Translations under genes and position numbers: made by a program | Source: a virus | Virus record (IMG/VR): IMGVR_UViG_3300020202_000062 | Coordinates: 1 to 64,000 of that record | DNA: 64,000 bases | Strand: one strand, 5' to 3' | In this document: in pieces, positions 15,767 through 27,059 of the stretch | Position numbering within the stretch: the stretch's first letter is position 1 | How the letters are laid out: each line of letters begins with the position of its first letter | Notes under the pieces: model-generated | Seen by the model: the letters and a program-made list of their open reading frames with translations, nothing else | The model's database searches: none | Told to the model about the DNA's origin: nothing

Positions 15767-16960
15767 ATGACTGATACAATCATTAGCAAGTACATGGGCG
15801 ACATGAACGTCCAGGTACCGTGGGCCATGGAGAACGACTACGACTCCATCCCCACTAACTTGATGACCGCACAGGTTTCTAGTAGGAACCTCAAGCACAT
15901 GAGTTTCTTCAGTGTATCCGTTGAGGAAAACACCTTCACTTATGATTCTATTGCGAATCGTGATGAGTGGAACGTGGTCTTTTCTATCGGATACAATCAG
16001 AACTCTGAGGTTGCGTACTACGTTGAGATGGTGGGCGTCGATGCCGTAATGGTCATTCGATTCCGCCAGAACAAACTCAACTTCACTATGGCAGCCGACT
16101 CTGAGCAGACTGCCTCTGGCGTAGAGGCATGGGTGCGTGAGGCTTATCCTCAGCCCAAGATCCAGCGCAAGTCTGACAGTGTGCCTCTGGCATTCTGGTC
16201 GCAGTCTCCTCATGGTTTCATCAAGCGCGATAAGAAGATCGTTCCTCTCGTATGGGAAGAGATCCGCGGCAACTACACCGCAGAGGCGAGGAAGCAGGTT
16301 GATAACCTCGTTGCAGTACATCCACCTCTTGATGGTGGTCGCCTTCTTCTTTGGCACGGGCCTCCCGGTACGGGCAAGTCTTCTGCTATCCGTTCTCTCA
16401 TTCACCATTGGCTGCCTTGGTGTAATGCGTCTTACGTAGTAGATCCTGAGATGTTCTTCGGTTCAGCCGAGTACATGCTCAACGTCTTGCTTTCATCTAC
16501 CAACAAGCAGTACGACATCTATGATGAGGACTACGACGAAGACGAAGAAGAGGAGACTCGCTTCATCCTTCAGGGTGAGGAGCGTTGGAACCTTCTTATC
16601 ATCGAGGACGCTGATGAGTTTCTCGTGGCCGATGCTAAGGAGCGCACCGGTCAGGCTCTATCGCGACTACTGAACATGAGCGATGGTCTCATCGGCCAGG
16701 GCCTAAACTTCCTCTGCCTTATCACTACTAACGAACCGATCGCCAACATCCACCAGGCTGTTTCGCGTGAGGGTCGTTGCATGGCTAACATCAACTTCCC
16801 CGCACTTCCTCGTGACGAGGCTGAGGCATGGTTGGGTCAGAAGATCCCCGCATCTGTCGGCGGAACTGAGTTCCCTCTCGCTAAGTTGTTTGACATGCGC
16901 CGTGAACTAAGCCAGATCAAGACGGAAGTCAAGACCTACTCGACAGGAGTGTACCTGTAG
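15767..16960 (+). CDS. AAA+ ATPase (DUF5925-associated actinobacterial type)
   Basis: LLLWHGPPGTGKS, LIIEDADE, LSRLLN.SDGLIG, ITTN, REGRC. Confidence 0.88.
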   Translation: MTDTIISKYMGDMNVQVPWAMENDYDSIPTNLMTAQVSSRNLKHMSFFSVSVEENTFTYDSIANRDEWNVVFSIGYNQNSEVAYYVEMVGVDAVMVIRFRQNKLNFTMAADSEQTASGVEAWVREAYPQPKIQRKSDSVPLAFWSQSPHGFIKRDKKIVPLVWEEIRGNYTAEARKQVDNLVAVHPPLDGGRLLLWHGPPGTGKSSAIRSLIHHWLPWCNASYVVDPEMFFGSAEYMLNVLLSSTNKQYDIYDEDYDEDEEEETRFILQGEERWNLLIIEDADEFLVADAKERTGQALSRLLNMSDGLIGQGLNFLCLITTNEPIANIHQAVSREGRCMANINFPALPRDEAEAWLGQKIPASVGGTEFPLAKLFDMRRELSQIKTEVKTYSTGVYL

Positions 16961-17454: not shown

Positions 17455-17695
17455 TGTCTTTTTCACTATCGAGATACACGATCGAACTAGGCCCTATTCC
17501 AGCGTGCATAACTGGGACTTCAAGATCTTGCTTGGTGATGTTGACCTCTACTACAGTGATCTGTATTATGATTCGATAGCAGACGCACAGGCCGTAGCAG
17601 AACGCCTCTTAGCAAAGGCAATCACAGGTCATGCTAAACTGGATCACGAATCAGAAAGAGAACTCTTCGACGCATGTACGTACAGGTATTTGTAG
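17432..17695 (+). CDS. hypothetical protein
   Basis: Probable GTG start; fills the gap before RNase H. Confidence 0.5.
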   Translation: MTLTQKVDVFFTIEIHDRTRPYSSVHNWDFKILLGDVDLYYSDLYYDSIADAQAVAERLLAKAITGHAKLDHESERELFDACTYRYL

Positions 17696-18129
17696 ACGGC
17701 GCTTCCAGAGGGCAAGGTCAGAAAAAGGTGGGTGAAGCAGCGTGTGCTGCTGTGGTTTTCCGGAACCGCAAAAGAATTACTCACTATGCTCGGGGCTTAG
17801 GTAAGCGCAGTAACAATGAAGCAGAGTACGAAGCCCTACTCTTGGGTCTATTGATGTGTGCTATGGCAGACCTCAAGGATCCTGTAATCTATTCAGACTC
17901 TGCTGTAGTTGTGAACCAGGTCACCGGCAGGTGGGAGTGTAAGAATCCCAACCTGCTGCCACTACTGATGTCGATCAAAGATATCCAAAGTGAGTTCAGG
18001 TTTCGGCTGGAACAAGTCCCACGCAACATGGTCTATGTTGCCGATGAACTATGTAACGAGTTCTTAGATAATTTAGATGAGCAGAAGAGGCTCATCGTAC
18101 CTAAGAAACAAATCATTAAATCTAACTAG
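17674..18129 (+). CDS. rnhA: ribonuclease HI
   Basis: FVDGASRG, SNNEAEYEALLLGL, YSDS.VVVNQ, VPR...ADEL. Confidence 0.92.
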   Translation: MYVQVFVDGASRGQGQKKVGEAACAAVVFRNRKRITHYARGLGKRSNNEAEYEALLLGLLMCAMADLKDPVIYSDSAVVVNQVTGRWECKNPNLLPLLMSIKDIQSEFRFRLEQVPRNMVYVADELCNEFLDNLDEQKRLIVPKKQIIKSN

Positions 18130-19100: not shown

Positions 19101-19478
19101 GTGACGGTGGATATCAGTTGGGAAGAATACAAAGATAAGCTGTATCGTTCTCGGTTAGACTGGCAGAACGATTCAGCCTGTCGGAGTATCGAAACAGCAA
19201 AGATGTATCCGTCATCTGAAAAGAATCAGGGGGTAGTTGCAGAGACAATCTGCGCTCCCTGCCCGGTTCGACTGAACTGTCTCGTCTATGCACTAGCATA
19301 TGACGAGCAGTTCGGTGTATGGGGTGGCACTACGGAAAAAGAACGAGCCAAGTTCCAGAAGGAACTTAAGGAGTTCACCACCCTATCTGTAAGAAGGAAG
19401 AACCTAGAGTCAATGGCTGCGCGTCACGTAGGTATTGCAGAGGTCTCCTCTCTTGCGGTGCAAGTAGTTAATGCTTAA
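19101..19478 (+). CDS. whiB: WhiB-family transcriptional regulator
   Basis: W...SAC..., CAPCPVRLNC, FGVWGGT.E.ER. Confidence 0.93.
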   Translation: MTVDISWEEYKDKLYRSRLDWQNDSACRSIETAKMYPSSEKNQGVVAETICAPCPVRLNCLVYALAYDEQFGVWGGTTEKERAKFQKELKEFTTLSVRRKNLESMAARHVGIAEVSSLAVQVVNA

Positions 19479-19910: not shown

Positions 19911-20336
19911 ATGAGTGGTTACACCGATACTCGTCCAGAGGATAGCGGAGTGATAGAAACGTTCACCTTTTCAACCAAGTTGATTCCAGATACTAAGGCA
20001 AACATTGACCTTCAATTAGAAGCGTTAAATGCTCGCCTTGAGAACCTGGTAGACAAGTGTAAGGTAGACTATCAAGACGGTAGGTACCCAATTCTCGCGA
20101 AAATCTTGGATGTAAGTCGCGATCGCACCGAACTGGAGCGCCTATCAAAGGGGCTCCAGATCGTGGCGTCGTTCATCGAAGAGTTTGACGTACTTCGTGA
20201 GCGACAGAATGTATTAGCAATGGCCCAGAAGGATCCAGGTTGGTTCGCTGCTGCCTTTGGCGACTTTGATAAAGACATCAACCATTTTCTAGATGTCATA
20301 ACTCAAGATGATGAGACTTTAACTAGCGAGGAATAG
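19911..20336 (+). CDS. hypothetical protein, first gene of the Ubl operon
   Basis: TAGTG-coupled to the E2 gene. Confidence 0.7.
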   Translation: MSGYTDTRPEDSGVIETFTFSTKLIPDTKANIDLQLEALNARLENLVDKCKVDYQDGRYPILAKILDVSRDRTELERLSKGLQIVASFIEEFDVLRERQNVLAMAQKDPGWFAAAFGDFDKDINHFLDVITQDDETLTSEE

Positions 20337-21892
20337 TGAAAACTGAGATCGTACTAGGTGCTGATGGCGTCCGTAAGGATGTCGACATGGGCACGGTGTC
20401 ACAGAGTGACTTCCGCGACATGGCCAGCACCTATAAGGAACTTTCAAAGATTGCTCTCTTCGATACTGGTATCCTACCCTTGCTAGGATCAGGTGTCCTA
20501 GCAATCCGCCATTGCCTCAATCATACACAGATTGTAGTCCAGCATGCTCCTGGAAAATACTACATCAACTGGTGTGACAACGAAGGTGATGAAGATGTAC
20601 AGACATACTACTTGGCTCAGCCATGGCGTATCGTTATCGGTGATATCAAGGACGACGAACTCTTAGGTGCTCGTACCTTCTATTCGCCTCACCCAATCCA
20701 GACATTAGAGCAGCCGCTCTATCACGTCAACCTACCTAACATCAACTGTGAAGGCTACGGCTATGCCTCTGAGCCTTATGGTGGGAACGGTGTAGGTTGG
20801 ATTTGCCTCTACCACACTGGTAGTTGGCACAACCTAACGATGGGTGAGAGGATCCGTGCTCTCATCGAGCGTGCCTCAGGCGTAGAAGTCTACAACGATG
20901 GCAACATGAGCGAGACAGACGGTCCTCGCTTTTACTTTAAGAACGAAAAGCCAGAATACGTTTGCTCCCCCGATGCCTGGCAGAAGAAGTCAGATGAAGA
21001 AGGATTTGAGTGGACGCTGGATGAGGATCTTTGGATTCCTGTCCTGGTTACTGGACGAGACAAGCAAGATCGGCACGACCCTGAGGGTGTACCGCTGACT
21101 CTAGAGATGGCAATGTATGGTGGCTATCGTGCGTACTACGAGGAGAATCTAGTACCGAAGCCAGTCAATGCATTTGGCCGCGACGATCTAGAGAATCCAA
21201 CGGGCAAGGAACTATTCAAGCATATCTCAAGCGCAGTATCCAAGGCGAACATCGCAACAACTGGACCCGTCAAGCCACAGGTAGTCGCGGTAGAGGAAGT
21301 TCTAGCAGAGAACATCTGCAAGTGCTGCGAAGAAGACGAAATTGATGACTACGACTTTGTTGTCATCCATGATGGCACTAAGATCTGCTCCAGATGTGCG
21401 AACGAAGGTTGCTACGTACCTTGCGAAGAGTGCCATGACTACTTCCACTACAAGTCTGCTAAGCCCTTCAGTGAGGATGAAGAACTCTGGGCGTGTAATG
21501 ATCACGCACACCTATTAGACACATGCTCTGGCTGTGGTGCATACTGGTGGAAGAATCCAGGTGCTGGAATTGATGACTGGAGACACTGCATAGACTGTGC
21601 CGTTCCTGTCGACTGTTCAAGCTGCGGTAACGTCGTTGCTGATTGTGATATCATCGTTGTAGAGGCTAAGGCTTCTCCAGACGATGAGCACACAATGGAG
21701 TTCTCTCTCTGTCACTCCTGTGCAGGTAGCACTAAGACCTGTGCATGTAATGTCTTGGTCAACGCCAAAGACACCGGCCCACTAAACGGCCTGTCGGTAT
21801 GTCAGCCATGCGTCGTGAATGACGATGAAGGCATCCCTTCTTATGTCCCACAGTCTGCCGTGAATGTCACGTTGACTACTACTACTTCCTAA
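20336..21892 (+). CDS. prokaryotic E2-like (Prok-E2_D type) protein fused to zinc-finger repeats
   Basis: LAQPW, LYHVNLPNINC...GWICL; about ten CxxC/CxxH pairs in the C-terminal part. Confidence 0.7.
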   Translation: MKTEIVLGADGVRKDVDMGTVSQSDFRDMASTYKELSKIALFDTGILPLLGSGVLAIRHCLNHTQIVVQHAPGKYYINWCDNEGDEDVQTYYLAQPWRIVIGDIKDDELLGARTFYSPHPIQTLEQPLYHVNLPNINCEGYGYASEPYGGNGVGWICLYHTGSWHNLTMGERIRALIERASGVEVYNDGNMSETDGPRFYFKNEKPEYVCSPDAWQKKSDEEGFEWTLDEDLWIPVLVTGRDKQDRHDPEGVPLTLEMAMYGGYRAYYEENLVPKPVNAFGRDDLENPTGKELFKHISSAVSKANIATTGPVKPQVVAVEEVLAENICKCCEEDEIDDYDFVVIHDGTKICSRCANEGCYVPCEECHDYFHYKSAKPFSEDEELWACNDHAHLLDTCSGCGAYWWKNPGAGIDDWRHCIDCAVPVDCSSCGNVVADCDIIVVEAKASPDDEHTMEFSLCHSCAGSTKTCACNVLVNAKDTGPLNGLSVCQPCVVNDDEGIPSYVPQSAVNVTLTTTTS

Positions 21893-21903
21893 GGATCATT
21901 TAA

Positions 21904-23133
21904 GTGAGTGAACCATTCGTAGCAGTTCCCATGGAGGAACTCAATTACTTCTGGGTCATCGAAGATGAGGTACCTTGCTTCATCGGTGACGTAGAAGACA
22001 TCACCAAGCACGCCGACACCTACGGTTATGAGATCTACTACGTTCTCGCTAACCGTGAGGTGACTACGAAGGGGGCAAACAATGTCGTCCATACTTCGTA
22101 CGAGCCAAGCACCTGGAAGGTTATCAACACCTTTGTCGGTCGCGCCATAGTCCCAGCAGATGGTGAAATCGCTCTTACTACTCTTGAGACCAACGCATGG
22201 TACAGCCTGCCGAAGATCCCGTGGGAACTAGTTCAGCGCATCGACACATTCTTCCGTGCAGTTGACAAGAAGCACTCGACTGAGTCTATTGTCATCCTCA
22301 CCTTTGATTCGACTAAGGACGATTCATCTGGTTGGGGTGTCTTGGTACCAAACCAGGAGAACTCAGCCGTAGATTGTGATTACGATCCCACCAGTGTGGC
22401 CGAGGCTAAGTCTGAGGCTGGCGAGCACATCAACATCGTAGGCTCAGTACATAGCCATCCCGATATGTCAGCCTATGCATCACACACTGACCACAAGGAT
22501 CAGGCCACCTTCCCTGGTATTCACATCACGCACGGCTGGTCTAACAAGACCGGTGGCGTTACTGAATACCACATCGAGTTCATGATGGGTGGTTACACCT
22601 GGGAGTTCAAGCCAGAGCAGGTATTCGCCAACATGCCACAGCCCGAGATCGTCGTAGACGAAGAGATCGAGGAGTGGATGTCTAAGGTGAAGCCAGCGAC
22701 GAAGACCTTCCCAAAAGCTGGGAGTGGCACCTTTGGCTCGACTTCTAGCCCTGGCGGCCACTCTTCGGGCTCTGGTAACGCTGCGCTAACTCGCATCACG
22801 TTACCCTCCGATGCTCCTAGCCTTGATGATACGATCATCATTGGTGAGATTGCTAGGGACTCGCGTAACTGCTTGCTTTGTGATGGGCTACTAATCGGTC
22901 CAGAACTGGACAAGCGTCGTTGCTTGTCTTGCCACTCGTATCTGCTTCTCCCAGAAGAGACCATCGCCAACCTCCTTGAGGTTCAGGCTGAGTATAAACT
23001 CTTCGCATGGGAGATCGATCCTAGCCAGAAGCCAGATAAGGCTATTGTCATTTGGCGGAAGACCGAGGATGGCAAGAACGTATACGAGAATGTCTACACT
23101 CCTGAATCTGAGTCAACCCTGGGAAAATCCTAA
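21904..23133 (+). CDS. JAB/MPN+ metallo-isopeptidase
   Basis: E...VGSVHSHPDMSAYASHTD (HxH-x7-S-x2-D). Confidence 0.9.
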   Translation: MSEPFVAVPMEELNYFWVIEDEVPCFIGDVEDITKHADTYGYEIYYVLANREVTTKGANNVVHTSYEPSTWKVINTFVGRAIVPADGEIALTTLETNAWYSLPKIPWELVQRIDTFFRAVDKKHSTESIVILTFDSTKDDSSGWGVLVPNQENSAVDCDYDPTSVAEAKSEAGEHINIVGSVHSHPDMSAYASHTDHKDQATFPGIHITHGWSNKTGGVTEYHIEFMMGGYTWEFKPEQVFANMPQPEIVVDEEIEEWMSKVKPATKTFPKAGSGTFGSTSSPGGHSSGSGNAALTRITLPSDAPSLDDTIIIGEIARDSRNCLLCDGLLIGPELDKRRCLSCHSYLLLPEETIANLLEVQAEYKLFAWEIDPSQKPDKAIVIWRKTEDGKNVYENVYTPESESTLGKS

Positions 23134-23777
23134 GGTGGCTCTCTAGGACAGGTGGATCCTCCGAGGGTCGGGAATATCTTTCCGGTCCCGGAGGGTCTAT
23201 CCTAGACGTAGGCTTCTGCGTAGAGTGCGGCGAACTGACCGAAGGTGATGGTCCAGAAGACAGTCTATGCCCTAGTTGCTGGAAAGAACTACGCCCAGCA
23301 CAAGAAGCATTTGATTGGGAGTTTCAGTGCGATGAATGTCAAGAGCCTGTGGAGTTTGCTTCACTTCTCTGTCGCTCATGCAAGTATGTATTCCCAACTG
23401 ACCACTGGACTGGTTGGACTAACCTTAGTGCAGAGGCAGTAAGACAAGCAGAGCCACCTCCCTTCGAAATAGATCCATCAGAGATCTACGACTATATGTT
23501 GTGCTGTAACGAGTCCCAGTGGGATTGTCAGTGCGAAGGCAGACAGAAGATCTCCTGGGATATGCGGAATGATGTTCCCAGAGAAGTCATGCAGAGTGCA
23601 TACAAACTAAACTCCAGTTGTATGGGGTGCGAGTTCTACTACACCCCAGCCTGCATGCCCTTCCGTGCCTGGATAAAGAACACATTGCTCACCGGCGAAG
23701 TCGGTGTACAAATCACTACTTGTAGCGCCTTCAAAGCAGATGAGACCTATGGTGCATATGCTTTTGAGTATGTATAA
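23121..23777 (+). CDS. Cys-rich extension of JAB reached by -1 frameshift at GGGAAAA
   Basis: -1 frame is open from 23121 to 23777 with no ATG/GTG/TTG before 23349; CVEC, CPSC, CDEC, CRSC. Confidence 0.75.
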   Translation, partial: GKILRWLSRTGGSSEGREYLSGPGGSILDVGFCVECGELTEGDGPEDSLCPSCWKELRPAQEAFDWEFQCDECQEPVEFASLLCRSCKYVFPTDHWTGWTNLSAEAVRQAEPPPFEIDPSEIYDYMLCCNESQWDCQCEGRQKISWDMRNDVPREVMQSAYKLNSSCMGCEFYYTPACMPFRAWIKNTLLTGEVGVQITTCSAFKADETYGAYAFEYV

Positions 23778-23814
23778 AAACTCAGGGAAGGCATTAAGAA
23801 AGGTACTCTAAACC

Positions 23815-24585
23815 ATGCGCGATCCCTATCGTACCATTGTGGTAGGTTGTGGGGGTATCGGCACCTGGCTGATCGAAGGTCTGTGTCGACAGATCTCAGC
23901 ATCAGCCCCTGGTTCTGGCATCATCCTAATTGACGGCGATTCATTCGAAGAGAAGAATCGTGAGCGTCAGTTGTTCAATGGTGCTGGCAACAAGGCAGTG
24001 GTGCTTGCCCGAAACCTCACACCACAATTCCAGAACCTCATGATCGTTGGTCAGCCCTGGTGGGTTGTCGGTGGTGAGGTATCTGGTGAGCCTGAAGAGG
24101 CATCAGATGACGGGACCGTGGTGACACGAGTACCTGCCAAGAAGATTCTTCAGAACGGCGATGTAGTCTATGCTGTTGTCGACAACAACGCAGCACGTAA
24201 GGTGTTGCTTGAAGCGGCAATGGAGATCGACAACATTGATGTGTTCTGTGCCGGTAATGATGACATGTACTACGGTTCAGTCTATCACTACCAGAGGCGA
24301 GATGGCCGTGACATCACGGTCAATCCGCTAGAAAATCACCCGGAGTATGCTGATCCTCAGGATCGGAACCCCGGTGAAATGAGTTGCCAGGAGCGCGCTG
24401 AACTAGATAGTGGTACTCAGCTCGTGGCAACCAACATGGCCGTTGCGGCTTGGCTGCTCGGTCGTAATCATAAGAGCATTCTTATGGGTGACGAACCGGA
24501 TGTGACTCAGATCTATTTCGATCTAGGTCATGGGCTAGCCCAATCGAATGATCGACGTATTGAATACGCCACAACGGCATCCTAA
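23815..24585 (+). CDS. ThiF/E1-like adenylyltransferase
   Basis: VGCGGIG, IDGD.FE.KN..RQ, NKA, VDNNAARK, putative catalytic SC. Confidence 0.92.
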   Translation: MRDPYRTIVVGCGGIGTWLIEGLCRQISASAPGSGIILIDGDSFEEKNRERQLFNGAGNKAVVLARNLTPQFQNLMIVGQPWWVVGGEVSGEPEEASDDGTVVTRVPAKKILQNGDVVYAVVDNNAARKVLLEAAMEIDNIDVFCAGNDDMYYGSVYHYQRRDGRDITVNPLENHPEYADPQDRNPGEMSCQERAELDSGTQLVATNMAVAAWLLGRNHKSILMGDEPDVTQIYFDLGHGLAQSNDRRIEYATTAS

Positions 24586-24614
24586 CCTAGGTTAAACTAC
24601 AGGAGATATATCTA

Positions 24615-24875
24615 ATGGAAATGGCTTCAGGCCCTCAGAAGAAGGCCACAGCAGCAGCGGCACAGCCGACGAAGATTCAGTTCGGCTTCTTCACACTGAC
24701 TGGTAACCAGTACGCTGGCAAGACCATCGGTGAGATCCGCGCACAGCGTGGTCCAATGTGGCAGATGCCCGAAGACACCGTCGCTATGATCGGTGGTCAG
24801 AAGGTTGATGACACTCGCGTTCTAGCAGAAGGCGATCAGTTGGAGTTCCACCGCAAGGCCGGTGAGAAGGGCTAG
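24615..24875 (+). CDS. ubiquitin-like (beta-grasp) protein ending AGEKG
   Basis: GKTIGEIR...AMIGG..V....VL.EGD.LEF..KAGEKG; strong AGGAG SD. Confidence 0.85.
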   Translation: MEMASGPQKKATAAAAQPTKIQFGFFTLTGNQYAGKTIGEIRAQRGPMWQMPEDTVAMIGGQKVDDTRVLAEGDQLEFHRKAGEKG

Positions 24876-24956: not shown

Positions 24957-26129
24957 ATGACTTCACAATCTCTTGCTATAAATCGTTTTTTTAAAGAGCA
25001 GCCAGATTGTATGGCGCACAGTCGGAACGCAGACGAACTGAAAGAACGATTCGAAGCGTTAGTTGCAGTGCCAAAGAATACTACAAAGACTGGCACCGCC
25101 AAAGATAGGCTAGCAGTCTTCGCTAGCAAGGGACTAGCCGAAGGTACTCATTGGTTCAATATGGGTAAGGTGTTCGAACACAACTTCGCTCGCACATACC
25201 CTAACCCGACCATCAAGTACTGGCTAGAGAAACAAGTTGGCATTCCATCAGACCAGTGCCAACTGGCCTTCATGGACAACGGTGACATCTTCCTGTTTAA
25301 GATTGAACCCAAGAACATTGAAGCAGTAAAGATCAAAGCACTGCCTACGCTCGACGGCAAGGCTGTAGACTTCTCGGTGCAAGAGCGTCCTAAGAAGCGC
25401 GCCGCTGTCGACCCAAGGTTTGGGGACATGCCTGATGTATCTGGTATGGCAATCTGTATGCCTAATTATCATGGCGGTGATACTCCGTCTGATATCACGC
25501 GTCTCCATAATGCAGGCTTTCCGCACCGCCGTATCGTTGCGGTTGAGAAAGATAAGACAGTATATGGTAGACTTTACGAACAAGTGCGGGGGCTGGGAGT
25601 AATCACAGTCAACCAAGATGTCGAAGAAGTTGTATGGGATCTCGCTAACGACGGCGACCGTGTCTCATGCTACTACGCAGACTACTGTGGTCAGTTCACC
25701 AAGAAGGTTCTCCATGGCTTCGAAGGCTTGATGGGTAATCTTACTGACAACGCACGCGTTATGGCAACCTTCAGTCGCTGTCATGACTCAGTCAAGTTCG
25801 ATGATATCTATGGTCCGCTAATGTTTGAGAAGTTAGCGAAGATGCGTAAGCGCCACTTCTTTCCATCAGAAGCATATGCTACACCAGCAGCGTGCTTGTG
25901 GATAACGCTTGTGATCAACCACGCACTCGGTTTAACAGCAGAGCAGTTTGCTAACCGTGTCACTATGCCTACTCCTAAGACTGGTTATTATGTAGAGGTC
26001 AAGTCTATTGACTACTATGCTGACTCGGTTCCCATGGAGTTTTCGACCTTCGATCTTCGTAAGGTTGACGATCCAGCAGATCATCTGCCAGATATGATCA
26101 GGGATTTGATGATTTCGTTCAGTGCATAG
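24957..26129 (+). CDS. hypothetical protein, C-terminal part possibly SAM-methyltransferase-like
   Basis: IVAVEKD, NQDV, YADYCG patterns. Confidence 0.55.
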   Translation: MTSQSLAINRFFKEQPDCMAHSRNADELKERFEALVAVPKNTTKTGTAKDRLAVFASKGLAEGTHWFNMGKVFEHNFARTYPNPTIKYWLEKQVGIPSDQCQLAFMDNGDIFLFKIEPKNIEAVKIKALPTLDGKAVDFSVQERPKKRAAVDPRFGDMPDVSGMAICMPNYHGGDTPSDITRLHNAGFPHRRIVAVEKDKTVYGRLYEQVRGLGVITVNQDVEEVVWDLANDGDRVSCYYADYCGQFTKKVLHGFEGLMGNLTDNARVMATFSRCHDSVKFDDIYGPLMFEKLAKMRKRHFFPSEAYATPAACLWITLVINHALGLTAEQFANRVTMPTPKTGYYVEVKSIDYYADSVPMEFSTFDLRKVDDPADHLPDMIRDLMISFSA

Positions 26130-27013: not shown

Positions 27014-27040
27014 AAGGGACCAGCATCGTCTGGTCCTTTT
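27014..27040 (+). terminator. intrinsic terminator-like hairpin
   Basis: AAGGGACCAG-CATCGT-CTGGTCCTTTT. Confidence 0.55.
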
Positions 27041-27059
27041 GTATTTGAGAGGAAGTTTT

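What the first reader, a model, noticed from the sequence alone, without database searches (positions are those of the whole stretch)
20336..24875. Complete phage-encoded ubiquitin-like conjugation cassette (E2-ZnF, JAB, E1, Ubl)
Seen: one operon with an E2-like protein (LPN...GWICL) fused to about five zinc-finger units, a JAB peptidase with an intact HxH-S-D motif, a ThiF E1 with a candidate catalytic Cys (MSC), and a beta-grasp protein ending AGEKG. No thiamine or molybdopterin genes are nearby. Known: E1-E2-JAB-Ubl sets occur in PRTRC cassettes and in bacterial Bil/Bub and CBASS Cap2/Cap3 systems, mostly on the host or plasmid side. Inference: a lytic phage running its own protein-tagging pathway, with zinc fingers as built-in E3-like adaptors, to remodel or destroy host proteins or to undo anti-phage conjugation.
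Basis: partly seen in the sequence, partly recalled or inferred. Interest (0 to 1): 0.9.

Follow-up and report, generated by a model that had tools for sequence, protein, structure and literature searches.

The report
Phage-encoded ubiquitin-like protein-tagging cassette
A large uncultured tailed phage carries its own conserved set of genes for attaching a small ubiquitin-like tag to proteins: an activating enzyme, four carrier-enzyme paralogs, a trimming protease and a glycine-ended tag. Such machinery has been tested experimentally only on the bacterial side, and what the phage tags is unknown.

Summary
Window 20336-24875 holds four tightly packed + strand genes.

- **E2-like protein with a Cys-rich tail:** motif LPN...GWIC with an invariant Cys157. 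It is homologous to Prok-E2_D paralogs, and its fold matches are weak but almost all UBC enzymes.
- **JAB/JAMM peptidase:** E, HxH, S and D are all conserved.
- **Minimal ThiF-type E1:** nucleotide-binding motifs plus an invariant Ser-Cys191.
- **86-aa beta-grasp protein:** it ends in an invariant ...AGEKG.

The record is a contractile-tailed phage (portal, sheath and fibre genes). All four genes recur in 53 of 54 loci of its roughly 200-kb clade and in a second, distant phage clade. Relatives include tags with 1-2 residues after the Gly and polyubiquitin-like tandem precursors, one in cultured Bacillus jumbo phages.

The closest curated families are PRTRC A, B and ThiF, all far below cut-off. 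It is not Bil, CBASS or a sulfur-carrier set.

Not shown: conjugation itself, targets, an E3-like role for the zinc fingers, or a lytic lifestyle. This scan had already found the same cassette on other genomes.

The parts
19911..20336 (+). Conserved upstream 141-aa protein of unknown function. It overlaps the E2 start by 1 nt and may be an accessory subunit.
   Evidence: A homolog lies directly upstream of the E2-ZnF gene in nearly all close-clade loci. No family hit. The atlas search was uninformative.
20336..21340 (+). E2-like (UBC-superfamily, Prok-E2_D-related) domain of the 518-aa protein. Motif L133-P134-N135 ... G154-W-I-C157, with candidate catalytic Cys157.
   Evidence: Invariant N135, G140 and C157. 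AF2 pLDDT 88, pTM 0.84. At least 20 of the top 27 VIA matches are E2 enzymes, with Z 3.2-4.5. hhalign against the paralog family gives E 2.7e-10. The nearest atlas structure clusters are viral, and one carries Prok-E2_D.
21341..21892 (+). Cys/His-rich C-terminal tail of the E2 protein, with about 4-5 predicted zinc sites. Proposed target-recognition module.
   Evidence: 19 Cys and 8 His, with motifs CSRC, CEEC, CNDH, CSGC, CIDC, CSSC, CHSC and CQPC. Six Cys are invariant in 31 relatives, but mean column identity is only 16% and length ranges from 0 to about 350 aa. No consistent Pfam family.
21904..23133 (+). JAB/JAMM metallopeptidase, short (0-frame) product of 409 aa. Predicted to trim the Ubl C-terminus and remove conjugates. 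It has an internal CxxC...CxxC zinc ribbon at residues 323-343.
   Evidence: Prok-JAB E 5e-6. PRTRC_A is the best NCBIfam system hit, E 0.002. Catalytic E, HxH, S and D are conserved in at least 90% of 68 sequences.
23121..23127 (+). Slippery heptamer G GGA AAA for -1 ribosomal frameshifting, two codons before the JAB stop.
   Evidence: All 7 genomes with a split JAB / Cys-rich gene have G_GGA_AAA, or C_CCA_AAA in one case. It lies 0-2 codons before the stop.
23150..23203 (+). Strong hairpin downstream of the slippery site.
   Evidence: ViennaRNA MFE -46.5 kcal/mol for the 95 nt after the heptamer, z = -4.6 against shuffles.
23128..23777 (+). -1-frame extension encoding a Cys-rich domain (CVEC, CPSC, CDEC, CRSC, CMGC). 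With the frameshift it forms a long JAB isoform of about 620 aa. The called ORF 23349-23777 is only its distal part.
   Evidence: The -1 frame is open from the heptamer to 23777 and has no start codon before 23349. In most relatives JAB and this domain are one ORF of 542-590 aa.
23815..24585 (+). Minimal ThiF-type E1 (256 aa). It would adenylate the Ubl C-terminal Gly. Candidate catalytic Cys191 lies in PGEMSCQER.
   Evidence: ThiF E 2e-8. PRTRC_ThiF is the best NCBIfam hit, E 5e-7 and below cut-off. Invariant G11xGGxG16, D40GD42, K47N48, R51Q52, D123N124 and S190-C191. No conserved CxxC zinc motifs.
24615..24875 (+). Ubiquitin-like modifier (86 aa): disordered N-terminus, beta-grasp core and flexible tail ending ...AGEKG.
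   Evidence: AF2 pLDDT 82 with the core above 90. Foldseek top hits are Caldiarchaeum ubiquitin, SUMO and ubiquitin. G86 is invariant, and some relatives carry 1-2 extra residues after it. A profile finds 1,910 cluster representatives, many of them tandem poly-Ubl.
27039..28643 (+). Classical-clade AAA+ ATPase (CDC48/PAN-like). It lies directly after the Ubl in most relatives. An association with the cassette is inferred only.
   Evidence: AAA E 1.6e-20. CDC48 1.5e-36 and PAN 8e-30. It is present after the Ubl in all close-clade loci that reach that far.
31238..33908 (+). Three tandem E2-like paralogs (31238-32152, 32059-33009, 33018-33908). All keep the PLPN...G..C motif.
   Evidence: Prok-E2_D E 9e-9 and 5e-4. 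PRTRC_B 1.5e-4. Aligned with the main E2. 39 of 54 close-clade loci have 3 E2-family ORFs within the fetched flanks.

Best explanation
This is a phage-owned ubiquitin-like conjugation system, distantly related to the PRTRC cassette of plasmids and ICEs.

Proposed mechanism:
1. The 256-aa ThiF-type E1 adenylates the C-terminal Gly86 of the 86-aa beta-grasp protein.
2. E1 takes the tag as a thioester on its invariant Cys191.
3. E1 passes the tag to the invariant Cys of one of four E2-like paralogs (Cys157 in the operon's own E2).
4. The E2 transfers the tag to an amino group of a target protein.
5. The fast-evolving Cys-rich tail of the operon's E2, and the different C-terminal parts of the other paralogs, choose the targets.
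6. The JAMM peptidase exposes the terminal Gly of precursors and removes the tag again. It is made in a short form and, by -1 frameshifting at G GGA AAA, in a long form with an added Cys-rich domain.

Shown here: all parts are present, their catalytic residues and gene order are conserved across two phage clades, and the tag family has ubiquitin-type precursor forms.

Inferred: every chemical step, and the targets. The cassette lies among early and replication genes (WhiB, RNase H, SSB, UDG). Its E2 tails diversify quickly. I therefore think tagging of host proteins during takeover or counter-defence is the most likely role (about 45%). Tagging of the phage's own proteins comes next (about 30%).
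For: - All four enzyme and tag families are confirmed, with intact catalytic motifs.
- The Ubl model is a beta-grasp whose best solved matches are ubiquitin and SUMO.
- The terminal Gly is invariant in 53 aligned sequences. Some relatives carry 1-2 residues after it (SL, NI, LA, C).
- The family includes tandem poly-Ubl proteins whose repeats each end ...EFVKxxGxKG. One is gp211 of the cultured Bacillus phage vB_BceM_WH1. This requires a peptidase that cuts after Gly.
- The E2 domain is homologous to the Prok-E2_D paralogs, and its fold matches are dominated by UBC enzymes.
- All four parts co-occur in 53 of 54 close-clade loci, 20 of 31 distant-clade loci and 24 of 37 MAG contigs.
- The order E2-JAB-E1 is the same as B-A-ThiF in the annotated PRTRC of Ralstonia phage Dina.
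- There are no sulfur-transfer partners.
- Precedent: the Bil E1/E2/Ubl/JAB set is a working conjugation system, and its JAB removes a single residue after the Ubl Gly (PMC10557695).
Against: - No biochemical evidence exists for this family or for PRTRC.
- The E2 fold matches are weak (Z at most 4.5). Foldseek found nothing significant in the PDB, and the family profile finds no solved relative.
- The tag ends in Lys-Gly, not Gly-Gly.
- The E1 is minimal, with no separate Cys domain and no ubiquitin-fold domain, so thioester relay to an E2 is assumed rather than evident.
- The zinc-finger tail belongs to no recognised family.
- All curated PRTRC models score far below their cut-offs.
Confidence: 0.72

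Rival explanations
1. The cassette is cargo, not core phage biology. It would be a Bil-like or PRTRC-like defence or superinfection-exclusion system that the phage carries to block competing phages or plasmids in the infected cell.
For: Related bacterial E1/E2/Ubl/JAB systems (Bil, CBASS Cap2/Cap3) act in anti-phage defence (PMC10557695, PMC10097602). The neighbouring AAA+ resembles the anti-phage ATPase IetA/IteA.
Against: The cassette sits at a fixed position between WhiB and the SSB/UDG genes in 53 of 54 related genomes. A second distant phage clade also carries it. This is unlike a variable accessory island. No isolate bacterial genome carries a close relative; only MAG contigs of inconsistent taxonomy do. 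No PADLOC defence model matches beyond weak E1 Rossmann hits.
Confidence: 0.1
2. The E1 and the small protein form a sulfur-carrier pair of the ThiS/MoaD/TtuB type. The pair would make a thiocarboxylate for a thio-modification of tRNA, DNA or a cofactor, with no protein conjugation.
For: ThiF-family E1 enzymes and Gly-ended beta-grasp proteins are the core of such pathways. The phage carries many tRNA genes, according to other first-reader notes listed that I did not check.
Against: The record has no rhodanese, ThiG or MoaE. The set always includes E2-like proteins with an invariant Cys and a JAMM peptidase. Poly-Ubl precursors occur in the family. The tail is KG rather than GG.
Confidence: 0.04
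3. The machinery attaches the tag, or another carboxylate activated by the E1, to something other than a protein lysine. The target could be a lipid, cell-wall precursor, nucleic acid or small molecule. Alternatively the E2-like proteins are non-catalytic adaptors.
For: E1-like enzymes also act in peptide and natural-product chemistry (MccB is among the weak solved matches). Ubl systems that modify non-protein targets exist (established knowledge: Atg8 and lipid). The E2 fold evidence is only moderate.
Against: An invariant Cys in all four paralogs and in the distant clade's 870-aa E2 argues for catalysis. A protease that cuts after Gly, together with poly-Ubl genes, fits a protein-tag cycle.
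Confidence: 0.08

Closest known systems
PRTRC system (ParB-Related, ThiF-Related Cassette; NCBIfam TIGR03735 A, TIGR03737 B, TIGR03736 ThiF) of plasmids, ICEs and some phages such as Ralstonia phage Dina
   Same: The best curated hits of JAB, E2 paralog and E1 are PRTRC A, B and ThiF. The gene order E2-JAB-E1 is the same as B-A-ThiF in Dina. My family profiles hit Dina's A (4e-6) and ThiF (2e-14). Both are carried by a mobile element. I found no experimental study of PRTRC in the searched library.
   Different: All scores are far below the family cut-offs. No ParB-like gene occurs in the 159-kb record, and there are no PRTRC C, E or F matches. The Ubl lies after the E1 instead of before the E2. 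There are four E2 paralogs, one with a zinc-finger tail, a JAB extended by frameshifting, and an AAA+ neighbour.
Bil (BilABCD, types I and II) bacterial anti-phage ubiquitination system
   Same: It has the same four activities. Its JAB pre-processes the Ubl by removing residue(s) after the Gly. It has no separate E3, and target choice is ascribed to the E2 (PMC10557695).
   Different: BilD is a roughly 500-aa E1 with an inactive adenylation domain and a Cys domain, whereas this E1 is a single 256-aa domain. BilB has a conserved His after the Cys (CEHH), and no such invariant residue occurs here. Bil is host-encoded defence; this cassette is a conserved block in phage genomes.
Operon types 6d/6e of Iyer, Burroughs and Aravind 2006 (PMC1779556)
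   Same: Type 6d has a Ubl, JAB, E1-like and E2-like protein plus an alpha-helical protein, and its E2 lacks the classical His of HPN. The family here has LPN. PolyUbl genes are noted for the related type 6e.
   Different: Those operons were described in bacterial chromosomes. The phage family has its own sequence families: no Pfam model hits the operon's E2 or the Ubl.
Lambdoid/T1 phage tail-assembly TAPI (Ubl) and TAPK (JAB + NlpC)
   Same: A phage-encoded Ubl with a C-terminal Gly, together with a JAB peptidase (PMC1779556).
   Different: It has no E1 or E2 and lies in the tail module. This cassette lies among early and replication genes and has a full activation and transfer set.

Membership tests
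PRTRC system | ThiF-family E1 scoring above the TIGR03736 cut-off (144.75 bits) | tested here: not met
   It is the best NCBIfam hit, but scores only 29.3 bits, E 5e-7.
PRTRC system | PRTRC_A (JAB) and PRTRC_B (E2) above their cut-offs | tested here: not met
   PRTRC_A scores 17.7 bits against 101.8. PRTRC_B scores 21.2 bits against 131.45, and only for the paralog at 33018-33908.
PRTRC system | ParB-related protein in the cassette or element | tested here: not met
   There is no ParB_N match in the 159-kb record, which is 75% complete. A ParB_N gene lies about 5 kb upstream of the E1 in one relative, L006.
PRTRC system | PRTRC proteins C (Ubl), E and F | tested here: not met
   No NCBIfam hits for the Ubl or for neighbouring ORFs.
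PRTRC system | Gene order E2 (B), JAB (A), E1 (ThiF) | tested here: met
   The window order is E2-JAB-E1. Phage Dina has B-A-ThiF.
Ubiquitin-like conjugation system (generic E1-E2-Ubl-DUB) | E1 adenylation motifs and a conserved Cys after the active site | tested here: met
   GxGGxG, DGD, KN..RQ, VDN and S190-C191 are invariant in 67 sequences.
Ubiquitin-like conjugation system (generic E1-E2-Ubl-DUB) | E2 with a UBC fold and a catalytic Cys after a (H/L)PN motif | tested here: inconclusive
   The motif and Cys are invariant, and homology to Prok-E2_D paralogs gives E 2.7e-10. Fold matches are nearly all UBC but have Z at most 4.5, and Foldseek found nothing significant.
Ubiquitin-like conjugation system (generic E1-E2-Ubl-DUB) | Beta-grasp modifier with an exposed or processable C-terminal Gly | tested here: met
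Ubiquitin-like conjugation system (generic E1-E2-Ubl-DUB) | JAMM motif E...HxH...S..D | tested here: met
Ubiquitin-like conjugation system (generic E1-E2-Ubl-DUB) | Formation of thioesters and isopeptide conjugates | not testable with these tools
   This needs biochemistry.
Bil (BilABCD) | E1 with an N-terminal inactive adenylation domain (Pfam Prok-E2_C) plus a Cys domain, about 500 aa | tested here: not met
   The E1 is 256 aa, and its only Pfam hit is one ThiF match spanning residues 6-212.
CBASS type II (Cap2/Cap3) | Fused E1-E2 protein acting on a CD-NTase | tested here: not met
   E1 and E2 are separate genes. PADLOC E1-E2 models hit only the Rossmann part of the E1 (residues 6-78), E 1e-5. 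I did not search for a CD-NTase.
ThiS/MoaD sulfur-carrier pathways | Partner enzymes (ThiG, MoaE) or a rhodanese sulfur donor | tested here: not met
   None in the 159-kb record.
RING/treble-clef E3 domains (for the zinc-finger tail) | Match to a RING, IBR, LIM or Prok-RING family | tested here: inconclusive
   No hit for the window's tail. Across 31 tails there were scattered single hits (zf_RING-like 0.004, IBR_1 0.016, FYVE in 3 members). Atlas leads to LIM and Prok-RING_2 scored below 0.9.

The most novel reading that the evidence does not exclude
A widespread clade of roughly 200-kb phages runs a hierarchical ubiquitin-type pathway of its own. The pathway has one E1 and three to four E2s whose divergent tails act as built-in substrate receptors. 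It also has a deconjugase whose targeting domain is dosed by programmed frameshifting, and a p97/PAN-like AAA+ unfoldase that acts on the tagged proteins. Together these would mark host (or phage) proteins for extraction or destruction during infection. This would be a virus-encoded ubiquitin-segregase system in bacteria.
Probability: 0.2. Interest if true: 0.9.

Novelty: new variant of a known kind. Interest (0 to 1): 0.68.

Why it matters
Ubiquitin-like conjugation in bacteria has so far been demonstrated only as host defence against phages (Bil, CBASS Cap2/Cap3, Bub). A complete, conserved and paralog-rich tagging system on the virus side would show that both parties use this chemistry. It would also give the untested PRTRC family a tractable relative.

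The family has several features of interest:
- one E1 serving several E2s;
- E2s fused to rapidly changing zinc-finger tails and no separate E3;
- polyubiquitin-like precursor genes;
- a deconjugase with frameshift-controlled isoforms.

Related JAB-E1-polyUbl sets occur in cultured Bacillus jumbo phages, so the idea can be tested at the bench.

Tried and rejected
- **Searches of GenBank phages:** megablast with the cassette, and tblastn with the window's E1 and E2, found nothing. Only more distant E1 queries reached cultured phages.
- **PHROGs:** no family for any of the four cassette proteins.
- **Word-based homolog search with the Ubl:** it found only the query itself. Homologs came from loci and from a profile search instead.
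- **Foldseek of the E2 model against the PDB:** no match at E <= 0.001.
- **E2 family profile against PDB sequences:** no relative found.
- **Complex prediction of E1 with Ubl:** no verdict (scores 0.55, 0.00, 0.00). This is neither support nor evidence against binding.
- **Atlas search for the upstream 141-aa protein:** uninformative.
- **Pfam scan of 31 zinc-finger tails:** no consistent family.
- **Terminase_6N and tyrosine integrase searches in the record:** both negative. Phage identity rests on the portal, sheath and fibre hits.
- **Literature searches:** I found no paper describing a bacteriophage-encoded E1-E2-JAB-Ubl set. The jumbo-phage review PMC7824862 does not mention one. The library is incomplete, so this is not proof of absence.
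- **Scan of species-representative genomes:** only MAG contigs with inconsistent taxonomic labels, so no host could be assigned.

Full report
**1. What is there**

The window belongs to an IMG/VR virus record of 158,928 bp, with CheckV completeness 75%. An identical E1 protein also occurs on a 235,865-bp contig.

The record encodes a portal protein, tail sheath proteins, a tail fibre and other virion proteins. It is therefore a contractile-tailed phage. A WhiB gene lies at 19101-19478, and WhiB genes recur upstream of the cassette in relatives. This suggests, but does not prove, an actinobacterial host.

I found no tyrosine integrase. 'Lytic' is therefore possible but not established.

**2. 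The four genes of the finding**

The ORFs are exactly as described. They are co-oriented with gaps of 11, 37 and 29 nt, and the upstream 141-aa gene overlaps the first ORF by one base. Promoter-like and terminator-like sites are no more frequent than in shuffles.

*(a) 20336-21892, 518 aa.*
- It has no Pfam, NCBIfam, PHROG or PADLOC hit, but at least 496 metagenomic homologs.
- Residues 1-335 give a confident AlphaFold2 model (pLDDT 88, pTM 0.84).
- Foldseek found nothing significant in the PDB.
- An exhaustive structural alignment against 48,161 chains ranked E2 enzymes in at least 20 of the top 27 places. These include E2S, UbcH10, Ube2K, UbcH5, Ubc12, Ubc9 and the bacterial CdnG-associated E2. 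Each aligned 113-139 residues, but Z was only 3.2-4.5.
- The sequence motif LYHVNLPNINC...GNGVGWICLY resembles the HPN...C signature of E2 enzymes. N135, G140 and C157 are invariant in 39 sequences.
- The family profile matches the profile of the downstream paralogs (hhalign probability 96.8%, E 2.7e-10).
- One paralog hits Pfam Prok-E2_D above cut-off and PRTRC_B weakly.
- The nearest predicted-structure clusters (TM 0.56-0.66) are 95-100% viral among members with recorded taxa. One carries Prok-E2_D in 13% of its members.
- I conclude this is a divergent member of the prokaryotic E2 superfamily, with moderate fold evidence.

The tail (residues 336-518) has 19 Cys and 8 His in eight CxxC/CxxH motifs. 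Across relatives six Cys are invariant. Otherwise the tail is poorly conserved: mean column identity is 16%, against 42% for the E2 domain. Its length ranges from none to about 350 residues. No zinc-finger family is matched consistently. The atlas leads to LIM and Prok-RING_2 are below the reliability mark.

*(b) 21904-23133, 409 aa.* It hits Prok-JAB above cut-off. E127, H183xH185, S194 and D197 are conserved in at least 90% of 68 relatives, including the distant clade.

*(c) 23815-24585, 256 aa.*
- It hits ThiF above cut-off. Its best NCBIfam hit is PRTRC_ThiF.
- The nucleotide-binding and catalytic motifs, and the dipeptide S190-C191, are invariant in 67 sequences.
- It is a minimal single-domain E1 with no conserved zinc motifs.
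- The closest solved relatives by sequence are UBA5, TcdA and MccB, all weak.

*(d) 24615-24875, 86 aa.*
- It has no family hit.
- The model is a beta-grasp (pLDDT 82, core above 90). Its best solved matches are Caldiarchaeum ubiquitin, SUMO and ubiquitin.
- The C-terminus ...EFHRxAGEKG is conserved, and G83, K85 and G86 are invariant.

**3. Evidence from relatives**

A profile of the E1 retrieved 118 IMG/VR contigs.
- In the close clade (E1 about 50% identical, contigs up to 268 kb), 53 of 54 loci contain E2, JAB, E1 and Ubl together.
- In a distant clade (E1 about 32% identical), 20 of 31 loci do. There the E2 is about 870 aa and the Ubl about 155 aa.
- Among 37 MAG contigs, 24 do.
- The MAG contigs carry inconsistent taxonomic labels and include no isolate genome. 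I read them as mis-binned phage contigs.

Two observations bear directly on mechanism.
- Some tags carry one or two residues after the Gly (GEKG-SL, -NI, -LA; GKKG-C). In the Bil system, the JAB removes exactly such a residue (PMC10557695).
- A Ubl profile finds 1,910 cluster representatives. Many have 2-6 tandem repeats that each end ...EFVKxxGxKG and run straight into the next repeat. This is the organisation of polyubiquitin genes.

One such poly-Ubl, with five repeats, is gp211 of the cultured Bacillus cereus phage vB_BceM_WH1. It lies about 4 kb upstream of genes that my JAB and E1 profiles hit at 2e-26 and 1.5e-31. Phages Edson and vB_BauM_KLEB27-3 have it too. The depositor's label 'virion structural protein' for gp211 is unverified.

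**4. The cassette is larger than reported**

- **More E2 paralogs.** Three further E2-like paralogs lie at 31238-33908, and all keep the Cys. Most relatives have three E2-family genes within the fetched flanks.
- **A frameshift in JAB.** The JAB stop is preceded by G GGA AAA. The -1 frame is then open for 650 nt into a Cys-rich domain whose first part has no start codon.
  - In most relatives JAB and this domain are one ORF of 542-590 aa.
  - In all seven genomes where they are split, a canonical slippery heptamer (G_GGA_AAA, or C_CCA_AAA in one case) lies 0-2 codons before the stop and the -1 frame is open.
  - Stable structures follow in several of them, with z = -4.6 in the window.
  - This supports a conserved programmed -1 frameshift.
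- **An AAA+ neighbour.** A classical-clade AAA+ ATPase (CDC48/PAN-like) follows the Ubl directly in most close relatives. Its sequence SKWIGESESNMRRAF resembles, from my own recollection, the p97 D2 pore loop. In the window, two genes separate it from the Ubl. A functional link is inference only.

**5. Comparison with known systems**

The best curated matches of all three enzymes are the PRTRC models A, B and ThiF, and the order E2-JAB-E1 is that of PRTRC. Every score is far below cut-off. There is no ParB-like gene in the record and no match to PRTRC C, E or F. I therefore file it as a distant relative, not a member.

It is not Bil, because the E1 architecture differs. It is not CBASS Cap2/Cap3, because E1 and E2 are not fused. 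It is not a sulfur-carrier set.

RefSeq already annotates a full PRTRC set in Ralstonia phage Dina, so a phage-borne set is not unprecedented in databases. I found no paper that describes or tests one.

Earlier notes of this scan report the same clade's cassette on other genomes, with similar conclusions.

**6. Verdict**

The biochemical reading, a virus-owned Ubl conjugation system, is well supported by anatomy and conservation but untested. The biological reading (targets, an E3-like role for the zinc fingers, host remodelling) remains open.

Noticed in passing
window 23121-23777: There is a conserved programmed -1 frameshift (G GGA AAA plus a hairpin). It fuses JAB to a Cys-rich domain. Seven related genomes have the same arrangement, and most others have a single fused ORF.
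   Followed up: yes
window 31238-33908: There are three tandem E2-like paralogs, all keeping PLPN...G..C. The first two ORFs overlap by about 90 nt as called.
   Followed up: partly
window 27039-28643: This is a CDC48/PAN-like AAA+ ATPase. Its sequence KWIGESE resembles, from memory, the p97 pore loop. It lies next to the Ubl in most relatives, and its N-terminal 230 residues match no family.
   Followed up: partly
window 24957-26129: A 390-aa ORF lies between the Ubl and the next conserved gene. It has no homolog in any of the 86 loci held and no family hit. It is possibly a recent insertion.
   Followed up: no
L124 (Bacillus phage vB_BceM_WH1, LC597490.1) 769-1668: gp211, annotated 'virion structural protein', consists of five tandem 57-aa Ubl repeats that each end EFKVQAGTKG. 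This is a polyubiquitin-like precursor in a cultured jumbo phage. A JAB (gp215) and an E1 (gp216) lie downstream.
   Followed up: partly
L068 8801-9361 and other distant-clade loci: The distant clade's Ubl is about 155-186 aa long. Its N-terminal extension matches the N-terminal region of Rho (NCBIfam Rho, profile positions 3-56, E 3.6e-6). This hints at a nucleic-acid-associated tag.
   Followed up: no
window 15767-16960, 17674-18129, 19101-19478, 34899-35651: The neighbours are a DUF5925 + AAA ATPase, an RNase H-like protein, WhiB and a uracil-DNA glycosylase family protein. The cassette therefore lies in an early/replication-type region.
   Followed up: no
L087-L123 (genome-contig hits): Contigs carrying the cassette are binned into MAGs labelled Saccharibacteria, Woesearchaeota, Iamiaceae, Limnohabitans and others. 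This looks like phage contamination of MAGs. One is a 210,765-bp contig in an Iamiaceae MAG.
   Followed up: no
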